The notes: generated by a model from the letters alone, not told the origin. 32,000 bases of DNA from Pseudoalteromonas translucida KMM 520 (GCF_001465295.1 NZ_CP011034.1:1380001-1412000), one strand, 5' to 3'. Positions 11,600-32,000 are shown, counted from the stretch's first letter. Numbers and translations: made by a program.

Positions 11600-11780
11600 A
11601 AGTACATTCTCAGGGCGGGGCGAAATTCCCCACCGGCGGTATGTTTAACTCACTATTTTTAATTACATTTGTAGTGTTTAAATAAGCCCGCGAGCGCTTT
11701 GTTGTTTTATATAATACCAAAGGTCAGCAGATCTGGTGAGATGCCAGAGCCGACGGTTACAGTCCGGATGAAAGAGAATA
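11600..11780 (+). promoter_or_regulatory. FMN riboswitch (RFN element) controlling ribB
   Basis: Canonical conserved blocks are present: TTCTCAGGGCGGGGCGAAATTCCCCACCGGCGGTA ... AGCCCGCGAGCG ... GGTCAGCAGATCTGGTGAGATGCCAGAGCCGACGGTTACAGTCCGGATGAAAGAGAA. P1 closes as ATTCTC/GAGAAT. A wobble-rich hairpin at 11802-11826 and a T6 run at 11834-11839 follow. Confidence 0.95.
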
Positions 11781-11939
11781 TGGCTTAAATATAGCGTTAA
11801 TAGTGCACGGCTTTTGGCTGTGTGCTATTTGCGTTTTTTAATTTAAGTTATTGTTGGTACTTATACTTTAATGCTTTTAGAGTTTATTTTATCGATCCTT
11901 TCAGTGTCCTGAATCTATTTATTTTTAATCAGGAATATA

Positions 11940-12596
11940 ATGATGATTCAGTCTCTACTTACTCAATTTGGCGAGCCGTTAACGCGCGTCGAAAATGCCA
12001 TTACCGCACTACAGCAAGGCCAAGGTGTATTGGTTGTTGATGACGAAAACCGTGAAAACGAAGGTGACTTTGTATTTTCAGCCGAGCATTTAACCACCGC
12101 ACAAATGGCTGAGATGATCCGCGAAGGCAGCGGCATTGTGTGTTTATGCATGGGGGAGGAGCGCATAAAGCAGCTCGACCTACCGCAAATGGTTACTCAT
12201 AACACCAGTCAAAATAACACCGCTTACACCATAACCATTGAGGCCAAAGAGGGCGTAACTACCGGCGTTTCTGCAGCCGATAGAGTTACAACTATTAAAG
12301 CCGCCACAGCCGACAATGCTAAACCTGCGGATTTATCACGCCCAGGGCATGTATTTGGCTTAAAAGCTAAAACGGGTGGAGTACTGGTACGCCGTGGCCA
12401 TACCGAAGCATCTGTTGATTTAATGCAACTTGCCGGTTTAAAGCCGTTTGGTGTTATTTGCGAGCTAACTAACCCCGATGGCTCAATGGCGCGTTTACCT
12501 GAGGTGAGCGGTTATGCAAATAAGCATAATATGCCAGTGGTATCGATTGAAGATTTAGTGCAGTACATTCAAATTGCACAACAAAAAGTAAGTTAA
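11940..12596 (+). CDS. ribB: 3,4-dihydroxy-2-butanone-4-phosphate synthase
   Basis: ...[37 protein letters not shown]...GSGIVCLC...RPGHVF.L....GGVL.R.GHTEA..DL is collinear with E. coli RibB and is preceded by the RFN element. Confidence 0.95.
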
Positions 12597-17090: not shown

Positions 17091-20000
17091 TTAACTATTT
17101 GTTGTGGTTGGGTGGCCATCTACCATTTGGGGTTTACCGCGCATTTTAGCAATTAAGCGCTTAGTGTCCTCTAGCGCCACATACTGACACGGAATAAGTA
17201 TTAGCGTTATTACGGTGGCAAATAACACCCCAAAAGCCAGTGATACAGCCATAGGGATAACTATTTTAGCTTGTAAGCTGGTTTCCATAATAATAGGCAT
17301 AACGCCAATAAATGTAGTCACTGAGGTGAGTAAAATTGCTCTAAAGCGCCGAGCGCCAGCTTGCATTACCGCCTCTTTAATAGGCACACCTTCAGCGCGT
17401 GCTTTGTTTACAAAGTCAACCATCACGAGCGAATCGTTTACCACTACGCCGGCCACGGCAATAATGCCAAACATTGATAAGCTACTCATGGTCATGCCTA
17501 AAATCATGTGGCCAAACATAGCGCCAATGACGCCAAATGGAATAACCGACATAATAATAAGCGGCTGCGAGTAAGAGCGTAGCGGAATAGCCAGTAGCGC
17601 AAATATAATGATCATCGATAATGCAAAATCGCGTTTTTGTTCATCAGCACTGTCCATTTCTTCTTGAACACGCCCAGCTACGTCGCTTTGTACACCCGGA
17701 TAGCTTTTTAATAAAGCGGGCAGGTACTGATCCCGAATTTCCTCGGCAATAGCAAAAGGCTCTGCTTTGTCGGTATTTACCGCTGCCCACACATTAACGG
17801 TGCGTTTTGAGTCTTCGCGTCGAATACGATTTACCCCATCAACTAAACTTACTTGCGCTATTTCGCTAAGCGGTACTTCTGCGCCGCTTGGAGTAATAAT
17901 ACGTACACTTTGAATATCGCTAATAGAATTACGCTCATCTTCGGGGTAGCGTATCATTACTTTAATTTCTTCACCTTCGCGTAAAATACGCTGTGCTTCT
18001 AGACCGTAATAACTAAAGCTCACCTGCGACGCTACATCGGCAAGGGTTAAGCCCATACTGTAGGCAAGCGGTTTTAAATCAAGTTGTACTTCGTCGGTGG
18101 CGCTTTGCATTGAGTCGTTTACATCGCCCACGCCTTCGATAGTTTGTAACTTGGCTTTTAATTTAGCGGCAACTTCTTTAAGTACGGCAGCATTTTTACC
18201 TTCAAGTTTAAAGCTAATATCACCATCATCACGGCCACCGTTCATTATGCTATCTTCAATGGTGAGGGTTTTAACACCCGGCAGTGGAGGCATTTGCTCG
18301 CGCCACAATGCACTTAGCGCAAAGGTGTCTATGGGGCGTAAATCGGGCTCTACTAAAATAGCCATAATATTGGCTAGTGTACGGCCACGTAAACTGACCG
18401 ATAAATCGCGGATCATCGATTTACCATATTGCTGTTGTAGTTGTTGATCTACTTTTAGCAGCACACTTTCTATTTTTTGTGCCGTCTCTAAGGTGGCTTG
18501 CTCCGAAGAAGCCAAGTTCATTTCTATTCGAATACGTGGAAAATCATGCGGTATTTTAGGGTTAGGAACAAATTTAACTAATCCTCCTGCAAACATCCCA
18601 GCGCTAATAATTAATAAGCACATAAAGCCTATTATTACTGTGTAACGATAATGAATACAGTGGCCAATAAAGGGCGTGTAATAATGGCTAACAAAGCTTT
18701 TTAAGCCGTTATCCATCACTGTACGAATACGATACAGTGGGTTTTTAGGGTTAGGTTTACGCTTACTCATAGCAGCAATATGTGCGGGTAAAATTAGTTT
18801 TGATTCAATCAAAGAAAAAATCAAACATAAAATAATCACGCCACCAATCGCTTTTGAAAACGCAGCACCTGGGCCTGTTGCTAAAGTTTGTGGTAAAAAG
18901 GCGGCAATAGTGGTCAGTACGCCAAAGGTTGCTGGTATAGCAACGCGTTTAACTCCGCGTACTACGTTATCTAGAGTGTGGCCGTGCTTTTCTATTTCGG
19001 CGCTCGCCGACTCGCCAACTACTATGGCGTCGTCTACTACTATGCCGAGCACTAAAATAAAGGCAAATAATGAGGCTAAGTTAATTGTTACGTCTAAAAA
19101 GCCAATTGGCATAAATAAAAATGCGCCTAAAAACGACACGGGTAAGCCCATCATCACCCAAAACGCTAAGCGTAATGGTAAAAATAAAGCCAGTACTAGC
19201 ATGACTAACAAGCCACCCCAAATCATGTTATCGACCATCATATCAAGCCGACCTTCAAGGTAGTAAGTTAAATCAAGAATAGGGGTTAGCTTTACACCTG
19301 CGGGTAACTGCGATTCTTTTGCTGCCATGTAACTTTTAAGTACTTTGGCTACGTCGGTAATATCTTGATCTTTTGAGGCGTTTATTTCAAACGACAATGA
19401 ATTTTTACCATTGTACTTTGAATATTGTAGGCCCTCGGCAAAGCCATCGTTAATAGTAGCTACATCGCCTAAATAAATTTGTGCGCCGTCGGGCAGGGTA
19501 ATAAGCGGCAATTTTGCAAACTCGTTACCCCGGTAGGCTTGCTTTTCTACCCGCATAGAAATATAGCCATTTTTTGAGCGAATTTGCCCAGCCGACATAT
19601 TGGCCGAAAAGCTTTGTACGGCGCTGGCAATATCTCTAAATGTTAAACCGTACTCACGCAGTTTATCTGGGCTCACTTCTATGCCTATTTCGTAATCTAG
19701 GCCAGCATTAAACTCAACCAAATTAATATTAGGCAGGGCTTGGAGTTCGTCTTTTATGTTATTACCTAGCTCTTTTAGCTGGTAGTTGCTCATGTCGCCA
19801 TACAGCGCGAGGATCATAACCTCTTGCTCGTACTTATCGCGGCGCACCACAGGACGCTCCATATCGGCAGGAAAAGTATTGATTGAATCAACCTGAACTT
19901 TTATTTCGTCAAGTACGTCTTGGGGATTATATTGCTCTTCTATTTCAACCCAGGCTTGCGAAAACCCACGGTTAGAATAAGTGATAAGGCGTTTTATGCC

Positions 20001-20240
20001 TTCAATTCCTTCTAGGTTTTCTTCTATTTTTATGGTTATACCTTCTTCAACCTCTTGCGGAGCAGCCCCAGGGTAAACAGCTTGTACGCTGATCCAATTA
20101 CTTTCAAACTGTGGAAACATCTGTTTGCGAATAGTAAATACCGTTAAAATACCGCCAATTAATATAAAAATCATTAATAGGTTTGCGGCTACGGGGTTTC
20201 GGGCAAACCAGGCAATTAAGCCTTTTTCACGAGTACTCAT
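17091..20240 (-). CDS. RND efflux transporter, inner-membrane permease subunit (AcrB/AcrD/AcrF family)
   Basis: The 1049-aa product has a 12-TM topology with two large periplasmic loops. The N-terminus (...IAWFARNPVAANLLMIFILIGG...) and conserved ...GIVVDDAIVV... / ...GVVVNDSLVMVDF... segments are typical of the family. Confidence 0.9.
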   Translation of the reverse strand: MSTREKGLIAWFARNPVAANLLMIFILIGGILTVFTIRKQMFPQFESNWISVQAVYPGAAPQEVEEGITIKIEENLEGIEGIKRLITYSNRGFSQAWVEIEEQYNPQDVLDEIKVQVDSINTFPADMERPVVRRDKYEQEVMILALYGDMSNYQLKELGNNIKDELQALPNINLVEFNAGLDYEIGIEVSPDKLREYGLTFRDIASAVQSFSANMSAGQIRSKNGYISMRVEKQAYRGNEFAKLPLITLPDGAQIYLGDVATINDGFAEGLQYSKYNGKNSLSFEINASKDQDITDVAKVLKSYMAAKESQLPAGVKLTPILDLTYYLEGRLDMMVDNMIWGGLLVMLVLALFLPLRLAFWVMMGLPVSFLGAFLFMPIGFLDVTINLASLFAFILVLGIVVDDAIVVGESASAEIEKHGHTLDNVVRGVKRVAIPATFGVLTTIAAFLPQTLATGPGAAFSKAIGGVIILCLIFSLIESKLILPAHIAAMSKRKPNPKNPLYRIRTVMDNGLKSFVSHYYTPFIGHCIHYRYTVIIGFMCLLIISAGMFAGGLVKFVPNPKIPHDFPRIRIEMNLASSEQATLETAQKIESVLLKVDQQLQQQYGKSMIRDLSVSLRGRTLANIMAILVEPDLRPIDTFALSALWREQMPPLPGVKTLTIEDSIMNGGRDDGDISFKLEGKNAAVLKEVAAKLKAKLQTIEGVGDVNDSMQSATDEVQLDLKPLAYSMGLTLADVASQVSFSYYGLEAQRILREGEEIKVMIRYPEDERNSISDIQSVRIITPSGAEVPLSEIAQVSLVDGVNRIRREDSKRTVNVWAAVNTDKAEPFAIAEEIRDQYLPALLKSYPGVQSDVAGRVQEEMDSADEQKRDFALSMIIIFALLAIPLRSYSQPLIIMSVIPFGVIGAMFGHMILGMTMSSLSMFGIIAVAGVVVNDSLVMVDFVNKARAEGVPIKEAVMQAGARRFRAILLTSVTTFIGVMPIIMETSLQAKIVIPMAVSLAFGVLFATVITLILIPCQYVALEDTKRLIAKMRGKPQMVDGHPTTTNS

Positions 20241-20242
20241 GG

Positions 20243-21433
20243 TTATTCCTCTTTAAGGGCAAGCTGGGTTACATCGCTATTAGGCGTGGTTTCTTCAATT
20301 TTAACGGCCATGCCCTCGGTTGGGTATTCAAGCGCTGAGGTAATAAGCTGATCACCCTCATTTAAACCTTGATTGGCTATTATCATGCCGTTTTGCTCAC
20401 GAATTATATTGAGGGTTTTAAACGATAGGGTTAAGTTATTATTTAAAATGGCAATTTTATTATTTTTTACTAAATGATGCGGCACAATAATAGCGTTATC
20501 GAGTGCGCGTCCCTCAATAGTGGCATTAATGTAAGAGCCAAATCGCAGTGGTTGGCTGTTATTAGCATAAGGAGTAGCAAGCTGCGCGACTAAGTAACTC
20601 ATTCTACTTTTTTGATCAACCACGCCTTCACTGCGTATTATTTTAGCTTGCCATGTTGTTTGCTTACCTGCGTACTGGGCGCTAAAAGTGACGTTTGCGT
20701 TTATGCCGCCGTTGCTTAAGAATTGCAGCTCGTTATCGGCCACGGGTAAACGTACTTCAGCAACTGCTATGGCACTTAATGCACCCAACCGACTTCCTTG
20801 ATTTACCACTGAGCCTAAGCTAATGCTGCGCTCATTAATTATCGCGTTGTAGGGGGCTTTTATGTAAGTGCGTTCAAGGTTGCGGTTAGCGCGTTTAACA
20901 CTGGCTTGCGCTGAGCGGTAACGTGCCATTTTTTCGGCGAGTTGCGGTTTACGTAAATACAGCTGAGATGCAATTGCATCGCTGGCATCGGCTTTAATTC
21001 GCTCCCATTCTGCTTTTGCTACGTGGGCTTGAGCACGTTCTATTTCGAGTGCAGAACTTGCTTGGGCTAAACCGGCCTGGGCTTCAATTAAGTCGGCTTC
21101 GTAATCATTTGGATCAATTCGTGCTAAAATATCGCCTTGTTTTACAAATGCGCCTTCAACAAACTGCCCGGCAACCGAAATAACTTGCCCACCTACTTGT
21201 GCAATTAACTCTGTTTTATCTTTTGGTTTTACAATACCGTAAGATTTTACATCGAGTGTTATTGCATCAAGGTGAACGTGTTGCGTGGCAATAAGTGGGC
21301 GAGTATCTTGTTCTGGTTTTTCTTCGGGTGGCGTTTTCATGGTTGAAAAAGCGAAAGCTAACGCAATTCCGCCAATTAAAACCGCAAACGGCAGTATTAT
21401 TTGTTTTTTAGAAGCCACGAGGCATTCCTTCAT
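20243..21433 (-). CDS. RND efflux periplasmic adaptor (membrane fusion protein, HlyD/AcrA family)
   Basis: It has a single N-terminal TM/anchor segment, a lipoyl-like/barrel-sandwich hybrid motif (...GDILARIDPNDYEA...), a hairpin coiled coil and a beta-barrel. Its stop lies 2 nt before the RND start. An alternative GTG start at 21418 has a better SD (AAGGA). Confidence 0.85.
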   Translation of the reverse strand: MKECLVASKKQIILPFAVLIGGIALAFAFSTMKTPPEEKPEQDTRPLIATQHVHLDAITLDVKSYGIVKPKDKTELIAQVGGQVISVAGQFVEGAFVKQGDILARIDPNDYEADLIEAQAGLAQASSALEIERAQAHVAKAEWERIKADASDAIASQLYLRKPQLAEKMARYRSAQASVKRANRNLERTYIKAPYNAIINERSISLGSVVNQGSRLGALSAIAVAEVRLPVADNELQFLSNGGINANVTFSAQYAGKQTTWQAKIIRSEGVVDQKSRMSYLVAQLATPYANNSQPLRFGSYINATIEGRALDNAIIVPHHLVKNNKIAILNNNLTLSFKTLNIIREQNGMIIANQGLNEGDQLITSALEYPTEGMAVKIEETTPNSDVTQLALKEE

Positions 21434-25598: not shown

Positions 25599-28373
25599 TT
25601 AATGTTCAACTTCTATCCAGTCTTTTTCGTCTACCCAGTTTTGTGCACCGTCTTTAACTGAGCGAATTGGCACAATATAATCGCAGCTTGTTTGCGGTTT
25701 AACTGAGGCAAATATAGGGACGAAGCCAAAGCTAAGCGCGGTTTCAATAATTGCCTTTTGATTTTGCGGGTCAATGTCGGCGGCTTCATCTATGTATATA
25801 GGTATACGGTATAAGTTTTGTTCTTGTGAGCTTAACAAATAGCGAATAAACAACATACCACATAATAACTTAATAGTTATGCGCGTGCCGTTTGAACCCG
25901 CCGAGTCTATTTTGTCAAAGTGTTCGGTATCGCCTGCGCGATTGACTACTTCAAAACGAATATCAAATAAATCGGTGAGGGTAAGGCCAGCTTTGTCGGA
26001 GGCGAGCTTAATTAAATGATCTTTCGCCTCGTTTACTGCGCTTTCGCTATAGGGTTCTTGGCTGAGTAAATCCAGCGTGTCCCCTTGCTCAAACTGATGC
26101 GAGGTACTAATTATAGTATCTATGCTATCAACTAACATTTTGCGCGGTATTACATTAATTTTAAATGCTTGAAGGTTCGAAATGCGATGCTGGCTAATGC
26201 CTTTATTAAAGCTGTTCATTTCGCGGCGCAGGCGGTCTAAATCTTCGCGCAGGCCTTTAATGGTTGCGGCTACTTCAGTTAGAGCCACGCGGCCTTGGCG
26301 CTCAACGGCATCGCGTTCGTTATCAATGTTATGAAACGCACTAATGAGTTTTTGATACTTACTAAACTCATCGTTTTCGTTATCAAACTTGGTAATACCG
26401 GCGTTATAAATATGTAAATAGGTATTGCGTACGTTTATCTCAAAGTTACGCAGCTCTTGGCAGTCTTTATTAAAGTGGTGCACTAGGTCGCTTAAATTAT
26501 CAAAGTCTATTGTTACCTCTATCATGTAAGGGGTAACTTTGCCGCTGTATAAATCAAGGGTGTGGTCAATTCGCTCACTTTTAACTTGGCGCAAACGATC
26601 AGATTGGCGATTAATTTGCGCCTGTTTTGATTTAATTATTGAGCGTCGGTCGCTAATTGAGCCGCTATTTTTTTGAATGTCTTGTAGATAATCGTCAACC
26701 TGATCGCGCTCGGCTAACAGCTGCTCTTTTAGCATGGTTTGTGCTTCTGCCGATTGCAGCATAGTGTCAAACTGCTCTAAACGTTTAAGAGCGGCTTCGG
26801 CGCTCATTAGTTCATCGTACAAGGTGTCTTTTTCTTTTTGCTTGTCGGCCACATTTGCCGCTACATCGCGCTGTTGCTTAAACTCTTTTAAAGCCTGTTC
26901 AAGGGCGCTTAGCTGAGCAGTTAGTTGCTCTTTATTTTCGCCGCTTTGCATTTGTACAGGCGAGAGCTTTTTAAGCTTAATACTCGCACCAGGCAGTGTA
27001 AGTACGCCGCCTTTAACGTTTTCACTTAAGTGCGATAAAAATTCCCCAAACGCATCTTCGTCATCAATACTTATATCGCCATTGCTGGTGGTTGCAAACG
27101 AAAGCATGTCGGGGTTTAAAATGCGCGAAATTTCTTCCACTTCTTTTAACGACAGCTCTTCGCGCATGCGGGTAAATAAATTAAATTCCAAGTTTTTAAG
27201 TTGCAGCTTTAAGCTCTTAATTTGTTTTTGGGTTTCGCTAATACGGTAGTCAAGTGTATGCAGGCTTTGCCCTTGTGCGCTGGTAATAGAGTGCGAAAGC
27301 GACTCGTAGTCTTGCTTTAACTGGGTTAGGTTTGTTTTAAGCGTGGCTTTGTTAACCAGTTCAAATTCGTTTTTAAGTGCGTTAAAATCTAAAAACCATT
27401 GCTCTATTTGCGTTTGCCTGCGCTCTATATCGCGCGACTGCTGCACGTACAAACTTTGCTTTTGTTCAAACTCGTGTTTTTCGTGCTCTATGTTTTCAAG
27501 CGCTATTGCCAGCTCTTCTAGTTGCGATTCTTGGTAGTTGTCAAAGTCAATGAGTGCTTGGTCAATTTTTGGAGCATAAGCCGCTAATTTACCTTTTAGT
27601 ACAGTTTGGTTCTCTAGCATCGACTCAAGCGCGGCTATGGGCTCTTGCATCGATTCAAGGGCGTGTAACTCACGTTTACTGCGGTTTACTTTGTCGAACG
27701 AGCGACGCCACACTTCATAAAAGTCGACCTTAGAGTTAGACATGTGGCGCTCAAATACACGTAGCATAAAGCGTTTTACATCGGCGGCACCGAGTTTATG
27801 TAAGTTAAGAATACGGCGAAATATTTCTTTATAAATAGTCGAATCTTGAACGTTATTAAGCGGGATCATTTTTAAGTTGATCTCGTCGTCAAATGGGGTT
27901 GCGCCGCCGGTGAGTAGGGCGTTTAGCTCTTGCGCTTTTAGCTCTATGGGGTTGTACCCAAGCTGTTTTAAATGGCTAAACAGCTTAGTGTATTTAATAA
28001 TGGTTTTACCTTGGGTGTACTGCTCTAAATCAAGCTTACCTTGGTAGCAAAAATATTGGTGCGCATAACCGGCAATTTTCCCCAAACCCGCTACACCAAT
28101 TACTACTGAGCCATGGGGCAGGTTTGCTTCAAGCAAAATGTAGGATTGATCGGACGAAAAATAAAACTTACGGGTTTCGTCTAAATCGTGGCCATCCCAT
28201 TCGGTTAGGCGTAAATCGTTAATAAGCGGAAACTGAAGAGCATTTATTACCGAGCTTTTACCGGTATTATTAGGCGCGCAAATAGAGCTGCTTTTATCCA
28301 GCGGGATCACACATTTTGCGTAACCTGCAGTATTGAGTAGGGCGAGTTTACTTAGTCCGTATAAATTTTTCAT
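25599..28373 (-). CDS. SMC-like ATPase (MukB/MksB/JetC-like), compact 924-aa form
   Basis: An N-terminal P-loop APNNTGKS (nt 28254-28277) follows ...LALLNTAGY....IPLD. Walker B IYIDEA (nt 25782-25799) lies 60 aa from the C-terminus, with SAGSNGT about 36 aa upstream in the position of the ABC signature. The ~750 aa between the head halves are E/K/Q/L-rich heptad-like sequence. They are interrupted near the midpoint by a Gly/Pro/Asp-rich segment (...NPDMLSFATTSNGDISIDDEDAFG...GGVLTLPGAS...), consistent with a hinge. The start overlaps the upstream stop (ATGA). Confidence 0.7.
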   Translation of the reverse strand: MKNLYGLSKLALLNTAGYAKCVIPLDKSSSICAPNNTGKSSVINALQFPLINDLRLTEWDGHDLDETRKFYFSSDQSYILLEANLPHGSVVIGVAGLGKIAGYAHQYFCYQGKLDLEQYTQGKTIIKYTKLFSHLKQLGYNPIELKAQELNALLTGGATPFDDEINLKMIPLNNVQDSTIYKEIFRRILNLHKLGAADVKRFMLRVFERHMSNSKVDFYEVWRRSFDKVNRSKRELHALESMQEPIAALESMLENQTVLKGKLAAYAPKIDQALIDFDNYQESQLEELAIALENIEHEKHEFEQKQSLYVQQSRDIERRQTQIEQWFLDFNALKNEFELVNKATLKTNLTQLKQDYESLSHSITSAQGQSLHTLDYRISETQKQIKSLKLQLKNLEFNLFTRMREELSLKEVEEISRILNPDMLSFATTSNGDISIDDEDAFGEFLSHLSENVKGGVLTLPGASIKLKKLSPVQMQSGENKEQLTAQLSALEQALKEFKQQRDVAANVADKQKEKDTLYDELMSAEAALKRLEQFDTMLQSAEAQTMLKEQLLAERDQVDDYLQDIQKNSGSISDRRSIIKSKQAQINRQSDRLRQVKSERIDHTLDLYSGKVTPYMIEVTIDFDNLSDLVHHFNKDCQELRNFEINVRNTYLHIYNAGITKFDNENDEFSKYQKLISAFHNIDNERDAVERQGRVALTEVAATIKGLREDLDRLRREMNSFNKGISQHRISNLQAFKINVIPRKMLVDSIDTIISTSHQFEQGDTLDLLSQEPYSESAVNEAKDHLIKLASDKAGLTLTDLFDIRFEVVNRAGDTEHFDKIDSAGSNGTRITIKLLCGMLFIRYLLSSQEQNLYRIPIYIDEAADIDPQNQKAIIETALSFGFVPIFASVKPQTSCDYIVPIRSVKDGAQNWVDEKDWIEVEH

Positions 28374-28918
28374 TGCTCGTCCTCTGTTAGGTAGGTTTCT
28401 TCGTTTACTTCCATTAAGGCATCTATATAGCGATGAATAGGGGCTTGTAGCATAAAGCCTGCTTCTACTTCGCGTGCCAAACCTAAGCGCACCATGCGCA
28501 GGTACACGTCTTTGCGCAGATCGGAGCCCGAAAATATCTCTAGTTGATCAAACAAGTGTTTGTTAATTTGCACTAAGGTTTGCATTAACTCTAAATCGTT
28601 TACTTCGTCGAACAAGGCGCGCATTGGGTCTTTGCCGGTGTTGGCGTAGTGCTCAATTAAAATATAAATAGTGAGGGCAATAGCACGGGATATTTTGCCC
28701 ATATTGGGTGTGCTTTCGTCGCTGCTAAAGTAATAAAAGCCACGGCTGTCGTGTTTTAGCTCGTTACCTAGGGCGCTAAATAGCGCGCTGTAAGCGTCTA
28801 TGTTTTGATCCAGCTCTTGCCACATTAGGTTGTCTTGTTCGCAAATATGATAACCCGCCACTAATTTTTTATTAATTGCTTGTAAGTGGGTAAGCTCGTT
28901 TAAGTTTATTTGTGTCAT
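28370..28918 (-). CDS. Small acidic MukE/MksE/JetB-like (DUF4194-like) subunit
   Basis: The 182-aa product contains ...KKLVAGYHICEQDNLMWQELDQNIDAYSALFSALGNELKHDSRGFYYFSS.... This follows the hhxG.hI......hW..L......h..hF..hG..L..D...GFhYh pattern I associate with MksE/JetB. The C-terminus is acidic (TEDEQ). The gene sits between the kleisin-like and SMC-like genes with a 5-nt gap upstream and a 4-nt overlap downstream. Confidence 0.6.
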   Translation of the reverse strand: MTQINLNELTHLQAINKKLVAGYHICEQDNLMWQELDQNIDAYSALFSALGNELKHDSRGFYYFSSDESTPNMGKISRAIALTIYILIEHYANTGKDPMRALFDEVNDLELMQTLVQINKHLFDQLEIFSGSDLRKDVYLRMVRLGLAREVEAGFMLQAPIHRYIDALMEVNEETYLTEDEQ

Positions 28919-28923
28919 GGTGA

Positions 28924-30210
28924 TTACTCATCTGCCTTACTAGGTTTTTGCGGCTGTGAATTATAGGGATAAAGAGAAAAATACTGACCGGCAATTTTAA
29001 AGCGTGCTTTTTCATCGCTTTGGCTTTTTTCAAGCTCGTCGTCACTCACTAATTTTTGATACAAAAACAGCATTTCTTCGGCATCTAAATCGGGGTAACT
29101 TTCGTCTAAAAATTGCAGCAATGGTTGCGGCTTTTTACGTTTTGTATTGAAGCGTTTTGCAAAGCTGCTTTTAACATCGTTGTAATCGGGAATGTTTGGC
29201 GTTTGAAAAGGCGGTACATCTTGCTGATCGGGCAATTGGTATTCTTGGTGTTCAAACTCAACCAAACTTGCCATATAGGCAACTATATGACGTTGTTGCC
29301 CCAGCGAGTAACGCTGTGCGTCGCTCACAAAGTGTGGTTGCACCGCTGTTAGCATGTTGTCTACGCCATTTTTACGCACTAGCCCAAGCACTTTTGCAGC
29401 TTGGCGGGTAATTAAGTTATTTCGGCGTAGCTCTTCACGCAGCGGCATTAGCATGTCGGCACTTTTACGCAGGCTTTCGCGGCCTACTAAATGCATTTCG
29501 AGAATACGGGTACGTAATTGCTCTAGCATGCGTTTGTCGGTATATGCTTTACCCGATTGCTCAATACGCTCTATTTGCGTACTAATTTGCAGCTCTATAA
29601 GATTAAAACAGGCATGAAATTCGCCGCGAATATCAATCATTTCTAGCATTGGCTCTATGTATTCGTCAAACGCTTCTATTACCGCTTTATAACGCTTTTG
29701 CAGCGATTGCACCGCGTTATTAGATTTAGCTTGCTCAACAATATTTAAAATGGCGTTTTCGTTGTGTGCGTACAGTTTCATTATTTTGCGTACCCGATCA
29801 TCCATAATACGGCTAAAACGGCGTAAGTCGTCAAAATCTTCCACTTCGCCCGCGTTAGCTAAGCGATCGCCAAGGCGAGCTAAGTCCTCTACTAATACGC
29901 TAATTTCTTGTGCTAAACCTAAATGCTCTTCTTGCAGTAAAAATGTAGCAAAGTCGGCAATGGCACGGTTTATTTCAAGCTGCGAAGATTTAGCTAAAGG
30001 AATTATAATATCTTGATTTAACAAGCGATTAGTTTCTTTATAAATTCGCTCGTTATGCCATGTAGGTTGTTTGTGTTTAATGGCATTTTGCAAATCTTTA
30101 ATACTAAAGTCGGCCATTTTAAAACGTTTAAATAATAGCTCTAGCACCCCCCAATGTTCGCTAAGGGTATTTAATAGCTTTTTAGCTGGGATCATAAGGC
30201 GTTTATACAT
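28924..30210 (-). CDS. Kleisin-like helical protein (MukF/MksF/JetA-like)
   Basis: The 428-aa product has an N-terminal WH-like region (...LLNTLSEHWGVLELLFKRF...RLLNQDIIIPL...). A long helical middle (...EISVLVEDLARLGDRLANAGEVEDFDDLRRF...) has a layout resembling the MukF middle domain. A Pro/Gln/Asp-rich linker (QEYQLPDQQDVPPFQTPNIPDYND) and a C-terminal domain follow. It is the first gene of the operon, as in mukFEB/mksFEB/jetABC. The family call rests on architecture, not on a search. Confidence 0.5.
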   Translation of the reverse strand: MYKRLMIPAKKLLNTLSEHWGVLELLFKRFKMADFSIKDLQNAIKHKQPTWHNERIYKETNRLLNQDIIIPLAKSSQLEINRAIADFATFLLQEEHLGLAQEISVLVEDLARLGDRLANAGEVEDFDDLRRFSRIMDDRVRKIMKLYAHNENAILNIVEQAKSNNAVQSLQKRYKAVIEAFDEYIEPMLEMIDIRGEFHACFNLIELQISTQIERIEQSGKAYTDKRMLEQLRTRILEMHLVGRESLRKSADMLMPLREELRRNNLITRQAAKVLGLVRKNGVDNMLTAVQPHFVSDAQRYSLGQQRHIVAYMASLVEFEHQEYQLPDQQDVPPFQTPNIPDYNDVKSSFAKRFNTKRKKPQPLLQFLDESYPDLDAEEMLFLYQKLVSDDELEKSQSDEKARFKIAGQYFSLYPYNSQPQKPSKADE

Positions 30211-30426
30211 CCTAGTATGTTGTTAAATAACGAGCTAAATAAGCGAGTTATTCATAATTTTAATAGCGCTGATAGCACTATGGTATTCGTTTTTACAACG
30301 ATTTAATAATAGTTTTTACCAGGTCATAGTGATAACATCCGCACCGAAAATAGGCACACGAAATATGCGGCTCTATTTTCTTCATAGGTTCAATTTTTAC
30401 ATTATTCCAAAGGTTGTTCAATTATC

Positions 30427-31779: not shown

Positions 31780-31811
31780 GTGATTGCTAAAATAGCCATT
31801 AATACAACATT

Positions 31812-31974
31812 CAGAAGAGGTGCGATACTTAGGTATTTAATGTGAGGTGACGAACGCCGTTGAGCATTAAAGAGGGAGGTACTCGCCGAGAAAAATAACG
31901 CGTCGTCGTCGTTGTTTTTCGGTTTATGGGGCTGAATCCTCAAAACTGTCACCAATATAGGTGGAGAGCTTCTG
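31812..31974 (+). promoter_or_regulatory. Lysine riboswitch (L-box); the regulated gene lies beyond the right edge of the window
   Basis: CAGAAGAGGTGCGA...AAAGAGGGAGGTACTCGCCGAGAAAA...ATGGGGCTGAATCCTCAAAACTGTCACCAATATAGGTGGAGAGCTTCTG reproduces the conserved L-box blocks AGAGGYGC, GGGAG..CGCCGA, GGGGCTGAATCC, CTGTCACC and GGTGGAGCRCTTCTG. These are nearly as in the E. coli lysC leader. P1 closes as CAGAAG/CTTCTG. Confidence 0.85.
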
Positions 31975-32000
31975 GCAGTGAATTTTCTTACCTTATATTT

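What the first reader, a model, noticed from the sequence alone, without database searches (positions are those of the whole stretch)
25599..30210. Compact kleisin / MksE-like / SMC-like ATPase operon (MukFEB-MksFEB-JetABC architecture) with no nuclease partner
Three minus-strand genes of 428, 182 and 924 aa are packed with a 5-nt gap and an ATGA start/stop overlap at 28370-28373, so they are almost certainly one translationally coupled unit.

The order and sizes match bacterial MukBEF-type condensins and the Wadjet (JetABC) anti-plasmid machine:
- first, a helical protein with a WH-like N-terminus, a flexible Pro/acidic linker and a C-terminal domain;
- second, a small acidic protein with a MukE/MksE/JetB-like pattern;
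- third, an ATPase with split Walker A and Walker B heads, a long coiled coil and a central hinge-like break.

Two things are unusual.
1. No Toprim/JetD/MksG-like ORF lies in or next to the operon. Downstream come a weak hairpin and then a lipoprotein gene; upstream is a divergent antiporter gene.
2. The ATPase is far shorter than MukB (about 1480 aa) and is on the short side for JetC/MksB as I recall them.

By established knowledge, Wadjet and MksBEFG need the nuclease subunit to restrict plasmids, whereas nuclease-less MksBEF in Pseudomonas acts on the chromosome. This locus could therefore be a second, minimal condensin, a DNA-surveillance module using a nuclease encoded elsewhere, or a diverged, uncharacterised SMC-family system. 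It is the only locus in the window that is not routine housekeeping.
Basis: partly seen in the sequence, partly recalled or inferred. Interest (0 to 1): 0.8.

Follow-up and report, generated by a model that had tools for sequence, protein, structure and literature searches.

The report
Ordinary nuclease-free MksBEF condensin operon
These three genes are a standard mksF-mksE-mksB operon, a MukBEF-like chromosome-folding SMC complex that normally has no nuclease; Pseudoalteromonas species inherit it in one chromosomal place, so it is an untested member of a known family, not a new system.

Summary
Three minus-strand ORFs of 428, 182 and 924 aa sit at the stated coordinates, with a 5-nt gap and an ATGA overlap.

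- The 182-aa protein passes Pfam MksE (138.8 bits, cut-off 27).
- All three match NCBIfam's Mks condensin models (E 1.8e-60, 3.5e-36, 4.2e-168). The kleisin and ATPase match end to end; MksE covers profile positions 2-175 of 232.
- An AlphaFold model of the ATPase (pLDDT 85) hits MukB best, then JetC. The kleisin model hits MukF.

Both "unusual" points fail.
- 924 aa is the normal MksB length. The profile is 926 aa, and nearly all full-length relatives are about 900-950 aa.
- Lack of a nuclease is what separates MksBEF from MksBEFG/Wadjet.

The operon is syntenic on the large chromosome across Pseudoalteromonas, Algicola and Rheinheimera. It is better conserved than its neighbours. It is absent from viral contigs and rare on plasmids. 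Its next relatives, at 33% identity over the full length, are Pseudomonas/Stutzerimonas MksBEF, a chromosome organiser in P. aeruginosa.

I could not test whether the genome also has MukBEF, SMC-ScpAB or an orphan JetD.

The parts
28924..30210 (-). mksF, the kleisin subunit (428 aa as an ORF; probable true start M6 at 30195, giving 423 aa). The model shows an N-terminal helical domain, long MukF-like helical bundles (residues ~100-287), a low-confidence Pro/acidic linker (~319-337) and a C-terminal winged-helix domain (helices 343-388 plus a beta-hairpin at 402-413).
   Evidence: NCBIfam NF040857 matches at E 1.8e-60, residues 6-400 against profile positions 1-391 of 412. Precomputed Pfam gives PF28010. 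The AlphaFold model has pLDDT 72.9. Foldseek ranks 1-7 are all MukF chains, E 2.7e-3 to 2.5e-2, prob 1.00. M6 is invariant.
28370..28918 (-). mksE, the KITE subunit (182 aa, with an acidic C-terminal tail).
   Evidence: Pfam PF21980 MksE scores 138.8 bits against a cut-off of 27, covering profile positions 2-163 of 163. NCBIfam NF040858 matches at E 3.5e-36, covering profile positions 2-175 of 232.
25599..28373 (-). mksB, the SMC-like ABC ATPase (924 aa). Layout: N-terminal head half 1-215, coiled coil 218-393, central hinge-like domain 399-480, coiled coil 481-727 with a conserved non-helical break at 598-627, C-terminal head half 730-924.
   Evidence: NCBIfam NF040859 matches at E 4.2e-168, residues 3-920 against profile positions 4-922 of 926. 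Precomputed Pfam gives PF28007. The AlphaFold model has pLDDT 85. Foldseek ranks MukB first (3e-22), then JetC (1e-15), then Rad50, Smc4 and Smc5/6.
28254..28277 (-). Walker A / P-loop codons of MksB (residues 33-40, APNNTGKS; K39).
   Evidence: N35, G38 and K39 are invariant in 50 diverse homologues.
25884..25895 (-). Signature-like motif of MksB (residues 827-830, SNGT).
   Evidence: S827 is invariant; G829 and T830 are at least 90% conserved.
25785..25805 (-). Walker B codons of MksB (residues 857-863, IPIYIDE; D862 and catalytic E863), followed by a D-loop-like AADID motif.
   Evidence: D862 and E863 are invariant; D868 is nearly invariant and N871 is invariant.
26934..27179 (-). Central hinge-like globular domain of MksB (residues 399-480), where the coiled coil reverses direction.
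   Evidence: Secondary structure of the AlphaFold model: short helices at 399-451 and strands at 457-466, lying between the two long helical arms.
30211..30426 (.). 216-bp AT-rich divergent intergenic region between mksF and the CitMHS transporter gene. This is the presumed operon promoter region.
   Evidence: Sequence read. Two weak sigma-70-like matches lie on the minus strand (30428-30401 and 30335-30306), but the number of such matches in the region is at chance level. The promoter is inferred, not shown.

Best explanation
The locus is a chromosomal mksF-mksE-mksB operon of a Pseudoalteromonas species (closest: P. distincta / P. arctica, 95% MksB identity). It encodes a nuclease-free MksBEF complex, the third family of bacterial condensins alongside SMC-ScpAB and MukBEF.

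Shown here:
- MksB has the SMC layout. Two ABC-ATPase head halves carry intact Walker A, signature-like and Walker B motifs. They are joined by a long antiparallel coiled coil that folds back at a small hinge-like domain.
- MksF has a MukF-like fold with a C-terminal winged helix.
- MksE is a bona fide MksE/KITE protein.
- The genes are translationally coupled.
- The unit is vertically inherited and under strong purifying selection.

Inferred from the family, mainly P. aeruginosa MksBEF, E. coli MukBEF and the JetABC structures:
- MksB dimerises at the hinge.
- MksF bridges the neck of one head and the cap of the other.
- MksE dimers sit on MksF.
- ATP binding and hydrolysis at the engaged heads drive DNA entrapment and loop extrusion on the chromosome.
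- The result is megabase-range cis contacts and help with sister-chromosome segregation.
- Because there is no JetD/MksG nuclease, the complex does not cleave DNA.
For: Family assignment:
- Pfam MksE is well above its gathering score.
- The kleisin and ATPase match the NCBIfam Mks models end to end, and MksE matches profile positions 2-175 of 232.
- Precomputed Pfam hits are PF28010 / PF21980 / PF28007 on this exact trio.

Structure:
- The MksB model has pLDDT 85 with head / coiled coil / hinge / coiled coil / head.
- Its best Foldseek hits are MukB (3e-22), then JetC.
- The MksF model hits MukF in ranks 1-7.

Catalytic motifs are invariant across 50 relatives that share only 19-66% identity.

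Normal size: 487 representatives at E<=1e-3, and nearly all full-length ones listed are about 900-950 aa.

Core-gene behaviour:
- The same lysC-CitMHS<>mksFEB arrangement is found on the 3.3-4.2 Mb chromosome in P. spongiae and P. piscicida, and also in Algicola on a 59-kb assembly contig.
- All 78 related loci keep the F-E-B order.
- Against P. distincta, MksB/E/F are 95/92/90% identical, while the CitMHS and DUF4136 neighbours are 87% and 77%.
- GC content is unremarkable.
- No viral relatives were found. Only 7 distant hits occur on plasmids, all on non-mobilizable replicons of 76 kb to 2.3 Mb.

Link to a characterised system:
- Pseudomonas/Stutzerimonas loci are the next relatives, at 33% identity over residues 5-919.
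- The Stutzerimonas trio passes all three NCBIfam equivalog cut-offs.
- P. aeruginosa MksBEF promotes megabase-range contacts and supports segregation, and E. coli MukBEF can replace it.

No fourth gene: none in the window, none in the annotated flanks of 5 relatives, and none in the spot-checked flanks of 5 more distant ones.
Against: - No function has been tested in this clade. Identity to the only well-studied nuclease-free MksBEF is about 33%, and the scores (561 / 125 / 205 bits) are far below NCBIfam's equivalog cut-offs (1900 / 400 / 750).
- The kleisin fold match is consistent but statistically weak (best E 2.7e-3), from a model of moderate confidence.
- Sequence and profile searches against the PDB found no SMC-family chain. 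Only coiled-coil noise was returned.
- I could not search the rest of the genome, so an unlinked JetD/MksG-type partner is not excluded. The other condensins present (MukBEF or SMC-ScpAB) are unknown.
Confidence: 0.82

Rival explanations
1. The operon is a Wadjet-like plasmid-surveillance module. Its JetD/MksG nuclease is encoded elsewhere in the genome, or another effector has been recruited, so the three proteins act as a DNA-shape sensor rather than a chromosome organiser.
For: The ATPase model resembles JetC nearly as well as MukB. PADLOC gives weak partial JetC hits, best E 5.3e-6. Some orthologous kleisins carry a UniRef name of 'DUF3375 domain-containing'; from my own knowledge DUF3375 is the JetA-type kleisin domain. 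[quoted passage not shown] The whole genome could not be searched.
Against: Wadjet needs all four subunits, and they are encoded in one operon. No fourth gene is present here or in any examined relative. PADLOC finds no JetA, and JetB only at E 0.016. The locus is fixed in one syntenic position and is better conserved than its housekeeping neighbours, which is unlike a defence island. It has no viral relatives and almost no plasmid relatives. The nearest characterised relative acts on the chromosome.
Confidence: 0.06
2. This is a functionally specialised MksBEF branch. In the Pseudoalteromonas / Algicola / Rheinheimera clade the complex may have a role different from that in Pseudomonas. It could be the sole or primary condensin, or it could manage or coordinate the plasmid-derived second chromosome (chromid) of Pseudoalteromonas.
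For: The clade is distinct: 51-95% identity within it against 33% to Pseudomonas. It falls below the equivalog cut-offs. MksE lacks the ~55-residue C-terminal part of the Pseudomonas-type profile. Pseudoalteromonas carries a unidirectionally replicating chromid. Which other condensins the genus has could not be established.
Against: Nothing in the sequence points to a new activity. All subunits, motifs and lengths match the family. Rheinheimera shares the clade, and nothing found here ties the operon to chromid carriage. The operon sits on the large chromosome.
Confidence: 0.1
3. The proteins are not SMC/kleisin/KITE proteins at all, and the resemblance is chance similarity driven by coiled-coil composition.
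For: Sequence and profile searches against the PDB return only coiled-coil proteins.
Against: The family-profile matches extend into both globular head halves of the ATPase. Head motifs are invariant. Structural hits to MukB and JetC reach 1e-15 to 1e-22 and include head-only crystal structures (3euk, 8dk3).
Confidence: 0.01

Closest known systems
MksBEF of Pseudomonas aeruginosa (nuclease-free Muk-like SMC condensin; Petrushenko et al. 2011, Lioy et al. 2020, Zhao et al. 2020)
   Same: Same three-gene order, mksF-mksE-mksB. Same subunit sizes for MksB (924 aa against a 926-position profile) and MksF (about 415-428 aa). The kleisin and ATPase match the Pseudomonas-type NCBIfam models end to end, and MksE matches most of its model. 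Pseudomonas/Stutzerimonas proteins share 33% identity over residues 5-919. No nuclease gene. Chromosomal and vertically inherited.
   Different: Only about 31-34% identical, so below NCBIfam equivalog cut-offs. MksE is shorter (182 aa against about 232), lacking the C-terminal part of the Pseudomonas-type profile. The genomic neighbourhood differs: CitMHS/lysC here, an rRNA operon downstream in Stutzerimonas. No experiments exist for this clade.
Wadjet / JetABCD = MksBEFG = EptABCD (anti-plasmid SMC complex)
   Same: Kleisin-KITE-SMC operon order. The MksB model aligns with JetC structures at E about 1e-13 to 1e-15. Loop-extrusion-type mechanics are presumed for both.
   Different: No JetD/MksG Toprim nuclease. 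PADLOC JetA/JetB/JetC models are not matched, or only marginally. The locus does not behave like a defence island. The literature reports no sequence similarity between MksBEF and MksBEFG.
MukBEF of E. coli
   Same: It gives the best structural matches for both the ATPase (MukB, 3e-22) and the kleisin (MukF). Same mukF-mukE-mukB gene order. MukBEF can functionally replace MksBEF in P. aeruginosa.
   Different: No Pfam Muk family is matched at E<=1. The Foldseek alignments run at 11-15% identity. From my own knowledge MukB is about 1480 aa, so MksB has much shorter arms.
SMC-ScpAB
   Same: General SMC architecture, with remote structural similarity to SMC heads (for example 5xei at 1e-7).
   Different: No SMC_N, ScpA or ScpB profile hits. 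The kleisin is MukF-like, not ScpA-like.

Membership tests
MksBEF (nuclease-free Muk-like SMC condensin) | Three-gene operon in the order kleisin (mksF), KITE (mksE), SMC-like ATPase (mksB) | tested here: met
   ORFs and junctions are confirmed. The same order holds in all 78 related loci, including Pseudomonas. The literature gives the operon order as mksFEB.
MksBEF (nuclease-free Muk-like SMC condensin) | MksE-family KITE subunit | tested here: met
   Pfam PF21980 scores 138.8 bits against a gathering score of 27, with full profile coverage.
MksBEF (nuclease-free Muk-like SMC condensin) | MksB: an SMC-like ATPase of about 900-950 aa with split Walker A/B heads, coiled coil and hinge | tested here: met
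   NF040859 matches at E 4.2e-168 over profile positions 4-922 of 926. Precomputed Pfam gives PF28007. Catalytic motifs are invariant. Model architecture and MukB/JetC fold matches agree. Family lengths are shown.
MksBEF (nuclease-free Muk-like SMC condensin) | MksF: a MukF-like kleisin with a C-terminal winged helix | tested here: met
   NF040857 matches at E 1.8e-60 over profile positions 1-391 of 412. Precomputed Pfam gives PF28010. MukF takes the top 7 fold hits, though with weak E-values (2.7e-3 to 2.5e-2). A helix-helix-helix-hairpin element lies at residues 343-413.
MksBEF (nuclease-free Muk-like SMC condensin) | Scores above NCBIfam equivalog cut-offs, meaning the same function as the Pseudomonas type by NCBI's rule | tested here: not met
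   The scores are 561, 124.9 and 204.8 bits against cut-offs of 1900, 400 and 750. A Stutzerimonas trio passes all three. This makes the window's operon a divergent branch of the family, not an equivalog by that rule.
MksBEF (nuclease-free Muk-like SMC condensin) | No fourth (MksG/JetD) gene in the operon | tested here: met
   Neighbours in the window and in L001 show no nuclease. Neither do relatives. The rest of the genome was not searched.
MksBEF (nuclease-free Muk-like SMC condensin) | Acts in chromosome organisation and segregation | not testable with these tools
   This is known only for P. aeruginosa. It is inferred here.
Wadjet / JetABCD (MksBEFG) | JetD/MksG Toprim nuclease encoded in the operon | tested here: not met
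   No such gene lies within the 32-kb window, within 9 kb beyond it, or in the related loci examined.
Wadjet / JetABCD (MksBEFG) | Matches to JetA, JetB and JetC models | tested here: not met
   In PADLOC, JetA gives no hit, JetB gives E 0.016 over 40 residues, and JetC gives only partial hits with a best E of 5.3e-6.
MukBEF | Matches to MukB/MukE/MukF sequence families, and a MukB of about 1480 aa | tested here: not met
   No Pfam Muk family is matched at E<=1. The ATPase is 924 aa. The similarity is structural only.
SMC-ScpAB | SMC_N / ScpA / ScpB sequence families | tested here: not met
   No such hits were found in Pfam or NCBIfam.

The most novel reading that the evidence does not exclude
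The Pseudoalteromonas / Algicola / Rheinheimera MksBEF is a separate branch, about 33% identical to the Pseudomonas type and with a truncated MksE. It might not be a redundant second condensin. It could be the main or only chromosome-folding SMC complex of these bacteria. It could have been adapted to coordinate the large chromosome with the unidirectionally replicating chromid. Or it could retain a nuclease-independent plasmid-sensing role. None of these is excluded, because the condensin complement of the genome could not be determined and no member of this branch has been studied.
Probability: 0.12. Interest if true: 0.5.

Novelty: new member of a known kind. Interest (0 to 1): 0.14.

Why it matters
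It matters little as a discovery. The family was described in 2011, has dedicated Pfam and NCBIfam models, and has been studied in P. aeruginosa.

Three modest points of value remain:
1. In NCBI records these Pseudoalteromonas proteins are still named only 'ATPase' or 'hypothetical protein', because they fall below the equivalog cut-offs. They can safely be annotated as MksB, MksE and MksF.
2. The clade offers a second, divergent, nuclease-free MksBEF in a two-replicon marine bacterium. That could be useful for comparing how condensins share work.
3. The Pfam and NCBIfam names for MksB and MksF appear swapped relative to the literature, which can mislead annotation.

Tried and rejected
- Sequence (phmmer) and profile (hmmsearch) searches of all three proteins against PDB chains gave nothing except coiled-coil noise. 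The SMC/kleisin relationship therefore had to be shown by structure prediction and Foldseek.
- A profile re-search of the 5.8-billion-protein set with the diverse alignment A1 returned the same close relatives plus Rheinheimera. It did not reach Pseudomonas.
- The listing of cluster members on ten distant representatives gave no organism names.
It worked with the smaller alignment A3.
- I tried to learn from the literature whether Pseudoalteromonas also has MukBEF or SMC-ScpAB. Searches and readings gave no statement either way. The founding paper (PMC3179180) is not held.
- The promoter and terminator scans are at chance level. No intrinsic terminator-like site was found in the 109-bp spacer after mksB, so the operon boundaries rest on gene spacing only.
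- A defence-island or mobile-element reading was considered and rejected, on synteny, conservation, GC content, and the plasmid and viral searches.

Full report
**Observation.** The raw sequence confirms a 5-nt spacer (TAA-tcacc-ATG) between the first two genes and an ATGA stop/start overlap between the second and third. The upstream neighbour is a divergent CitMHS-family transporter gene, 216 bp away. The downstream neighbour is a DUF4136 lipoprotein gene, 109 bp away. GC content across the operon (0.42-0.43) is like the rest of the window. One correction: in 32 orthologues M6 is invariant and residues 1-5 are not conserved. The kleisin therefore most likely starts at 30195 (423 aa), which is also what the gene caller chose on an independent contig.

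**Family searches.**
- The 182-aa protein is a clear Pfam MksE (PF21980): 138.8 bits against a gathering score of 27, with the whole profile covered.
- NCBIfam's Mks condensin models match all three proteins. The 924-aa protein matches at E 4.2e-168, residues 3-920 on profile positions 4-922 of 926. The 428-aa protein matches at E 1.8e-60 on positions 1-391 of 412. The 182-aa protein matches at E 3.5e-36 on positions 2-175 of 232.
- All three scores lie below NCBIfam's equivalog cut-offs.
- On an independent assembly contig that carries the identical ATPase, the precomputed Pfam table labels the trio PF28010 / PF21980 / PF28007. These are Mks families newer than the local Pfam copy.
- PADLOC's Wadjet models are not matched. 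JetA gives nothing, JetB gives E 0.016, and JetC gives only partial hits at about 5e-6.
- Sequence and profile searches against PDB chains gave only coiled-coil noise.

**Structure.** An AlphaFold2 model of the ATPase, built on a 50-sequence alignment, has mean pLDDT 85 and the SMC layout:
- N-terminal head half, residues 1-215
- helical arm, 218-393
- small globular central domain, 399-480
- return arm, 481-727, with a non-helical break at 598-627
- C-terminal head half, 730-924

Foldseek against the PDB ranks MukB first (9gm9_A at 3.2e-22, 7nyw_B at 4.1e-22). Wadjet JetC follows (9qe0, 8q72, 8dk2; about 1e-13 to 1e-15), then Rad50, Smc4 and Smc5/6. Head-only crystal structures of MukB and JetC are also hit.

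In 50 relatives sharing only 19-66% identity, the following are invariant or nearly so:
- the Walker A residues N35, G38 and K39
- the signature-like S827 / G829 / T830
- the Walker B pair D862-E863
- D868 and N871

The kleisin model is of moderate confidence (pLDDT 72.9). It shows long helical bundles, a disordered Pro/acidic linker, and a C-terminal three-helix plus hairpin winged helix. Its top seven PDB matches are all MukF. The E-values are weak (2.7e-3 to 2.5e-2) but the probability is 1.00.

**The two 'unusual' features.**
- *Length.* An exhaustive HMMER search of 1.84 billion representatives finds a compact family: 487 proteins at E<=1e-3 and 180 at 1e-30. Nearly all full-length members among the 150 best listed are about 900-950 aa. 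The NCBIfam profile is 926 positions. So 924 aa is the family norm.
- *No nuclease.* This is what separates MksBEF from MksBEFG/Wadjet in the literature. The P. aeruginosa mksFEB operon has three genes, and MksBEFG is treated as a separate system with no sequence similarity. Wadjet needs JetD encoded in the operon.
- *Local check.* Pfam annotation of every sizeable ORF in the window shows housekeeping, transport and regulatory genes only: dapB, carAB, greA, ribB, an RND efflux pair, a TonB receptor, msrA and others. The 9 kb beyond the window end is equally free of nucleases.

**Distribution and inheritance.** The ATPase has 74-95% identical orthologues in named species across the genus: arctica, distincta, tetraodonis, issachenkonii, atlantica, piscicida, rubra, luteoviolacea, tunicata, phenolica, spongiae and others. 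It is 63% identical in Algicola.

The best 80 break down as follows:

| Group | Loci / identity to the window MksB |
|---|---|
| Pseudoalteromonas | 37 species genomes, 70-95% |
| Rheinheimera and relatives | 58-63% |
| Marinifaba | 57% |
| Litoribrevibacter | 54% |
| Gallaecimonas | 51% |
| Pseudomonas / Stutzerimonas | 33-34% over residues 5-919 |

All 78 distinct loci keep the kleisin-KITE-ATPase order. The divergent CitMHS neighbour is kept throughout Pseudoalteromonas, in Algicola and in most Rheinheimera. The lysC-CitMHS<>mksFEB arrangement was seen on the 3.3-4.2 Mb large chromosome of P. spongiae and P. piscicida, and also on a 59-kb Algicola contig.

Against P. distincta, the Mks proteins are 95/92/90% identical. 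The flanking CitMHS and DUF4136 proteins are 87% and 77%. That is strong purifying selection, unlike a defence island.

No relative occurs in 2.9 million viral contigs. Only seven distant relatives (23-29%) occur among 72,556 plasmids, all on non-mobilizable replicons of 76 kb to 2.3 Mb.

**Link to a characterised system.** A Stutzerimonas stutzeri trio from the scan passes all three NCBIfam equivalog cut-offs: 1995.7, 855.9 and 445.7 bits. Those models therefore define the Pseudomonas-type MksBEF, and the window's operon is a divergent branch of the same family. In P. aeruginosa, MksBEF promotes megabase-range DNA contacts. It becomes critical for segregation when the main system is absent, and E. 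coli MukBEF can replace it. [quoted passage not shown]

**Mechanism.**
- *Shown:* SMC-type ATPase architecture with intact catalytic motifs, a MukF-like kleisin with a C-terminal winged helix, an MksE KITE subunit, translational coupling and vertical inheritance.
- *Inferred from MukBEF, JetABC and P. aeruginosa MksBEF:* MksB dimerises at the central domain. MksE dimers bind MksF. ATP-driven head engagement powers DNA entrapment and loop extrusion along the chromosome, which aids compaction and sister separation. No DNA is cleaved.

**What remains open.** I could not determine whether the same genome also encodes MukBEF or SMC-ScpAB, or an orphan JetD/MksG. This leaves a small probability for a trans-acting nuclease, or for a specialised role such as sole condensin or chromid management in this two-replicon genus.

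**Verdict.** The claimed oddities are the normal properties of MksBEF. It is a new, untested member of a known kind, and its interest is low.

Noticed in passing
window 25599-28373 and 28924-30210; L065:5962-10835: NCBIfam (NF040857 'condensinMksB', 412 aa; NF040859 'condensinMksF', 926 aa) and Pfam (PF28010 'MksB'; PF28007 'MksF') call the kleisin 'MksB' and the SMC-like ATPase 'MksF'. The literature uses the opposite names: MksB is the ATPase, MksF is the kleisin, and the operon is mksFEB. The database names appear swapped and could spread into annotations.
   Followed up: partly
window 17091-21433 versus L001:15104-15732: The window carries an RND efflux pair (AcrB-family protein of 1049 aa plus a HlyD-family protein of 396 aa) between the pseudouridine synthase gene and the TonB-dependent receptor gene. 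The assembly contig L001 has a 100% identical MksB but only an 87-aa ORF at that place. This is a strain-level insertion or deletion next to otherwise identical DNA.
   Followed up: no
window 11602-11783 (+): An FMN riboswitch (Rfam RF00050, 107 bits) lies just upstream of the ribB (DHBP synthase) gene at 11940-12596.
   Followed up: no
window 31807-31979 (+): A lysine riboswitch (Rfam RF00168, 100 bits) lies at the window edge. It points towards the aspartate kinase gene that L001 shows just beyond the window end.
   Followed up: no
window 26490-26579 (MksB residues 598-627): The model has a roughly 30-residue non-helical break in the descending coiled-coil arm. P615 is invariant in the 11-sequence alignment A3. 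It may be an elbow or joint like the one that lets MukB arms fold. It was not analysed further.
   Followed up: no
L065:11556-16778: In Stutzerimonas stutzeri a complete rRNA operon (5S, 23S, two tRNAs, 16S) lies convergently just downstream of mksB. This probably explains why many Pseudomonas draft contigs end about 3 kb after mksB.
   Followed up: yes
L053:10811-11695 (-): In Gallaecimonas a convergent Exo_endo_phos (EEP-family endonuclease/phosphatase) gene abuts and slightly overlaps the end of mksB. It was not seen next to any other examined relative, so it is probably coincidental.
   Followed up: no
window 28370-28918: MksE here is 182 aa and matches only positions 2-175 of the 232-position Pseudomonas-type NCBIfam profile, although the Pfam MksE domain is complete. 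MksE ORF lengths vary among relatives: 176-239 aa in the five MksE ORFs listed, and 206 aa in Algicola. So the variation appears to lie in the C-terminal tail.
   Followed up: partly
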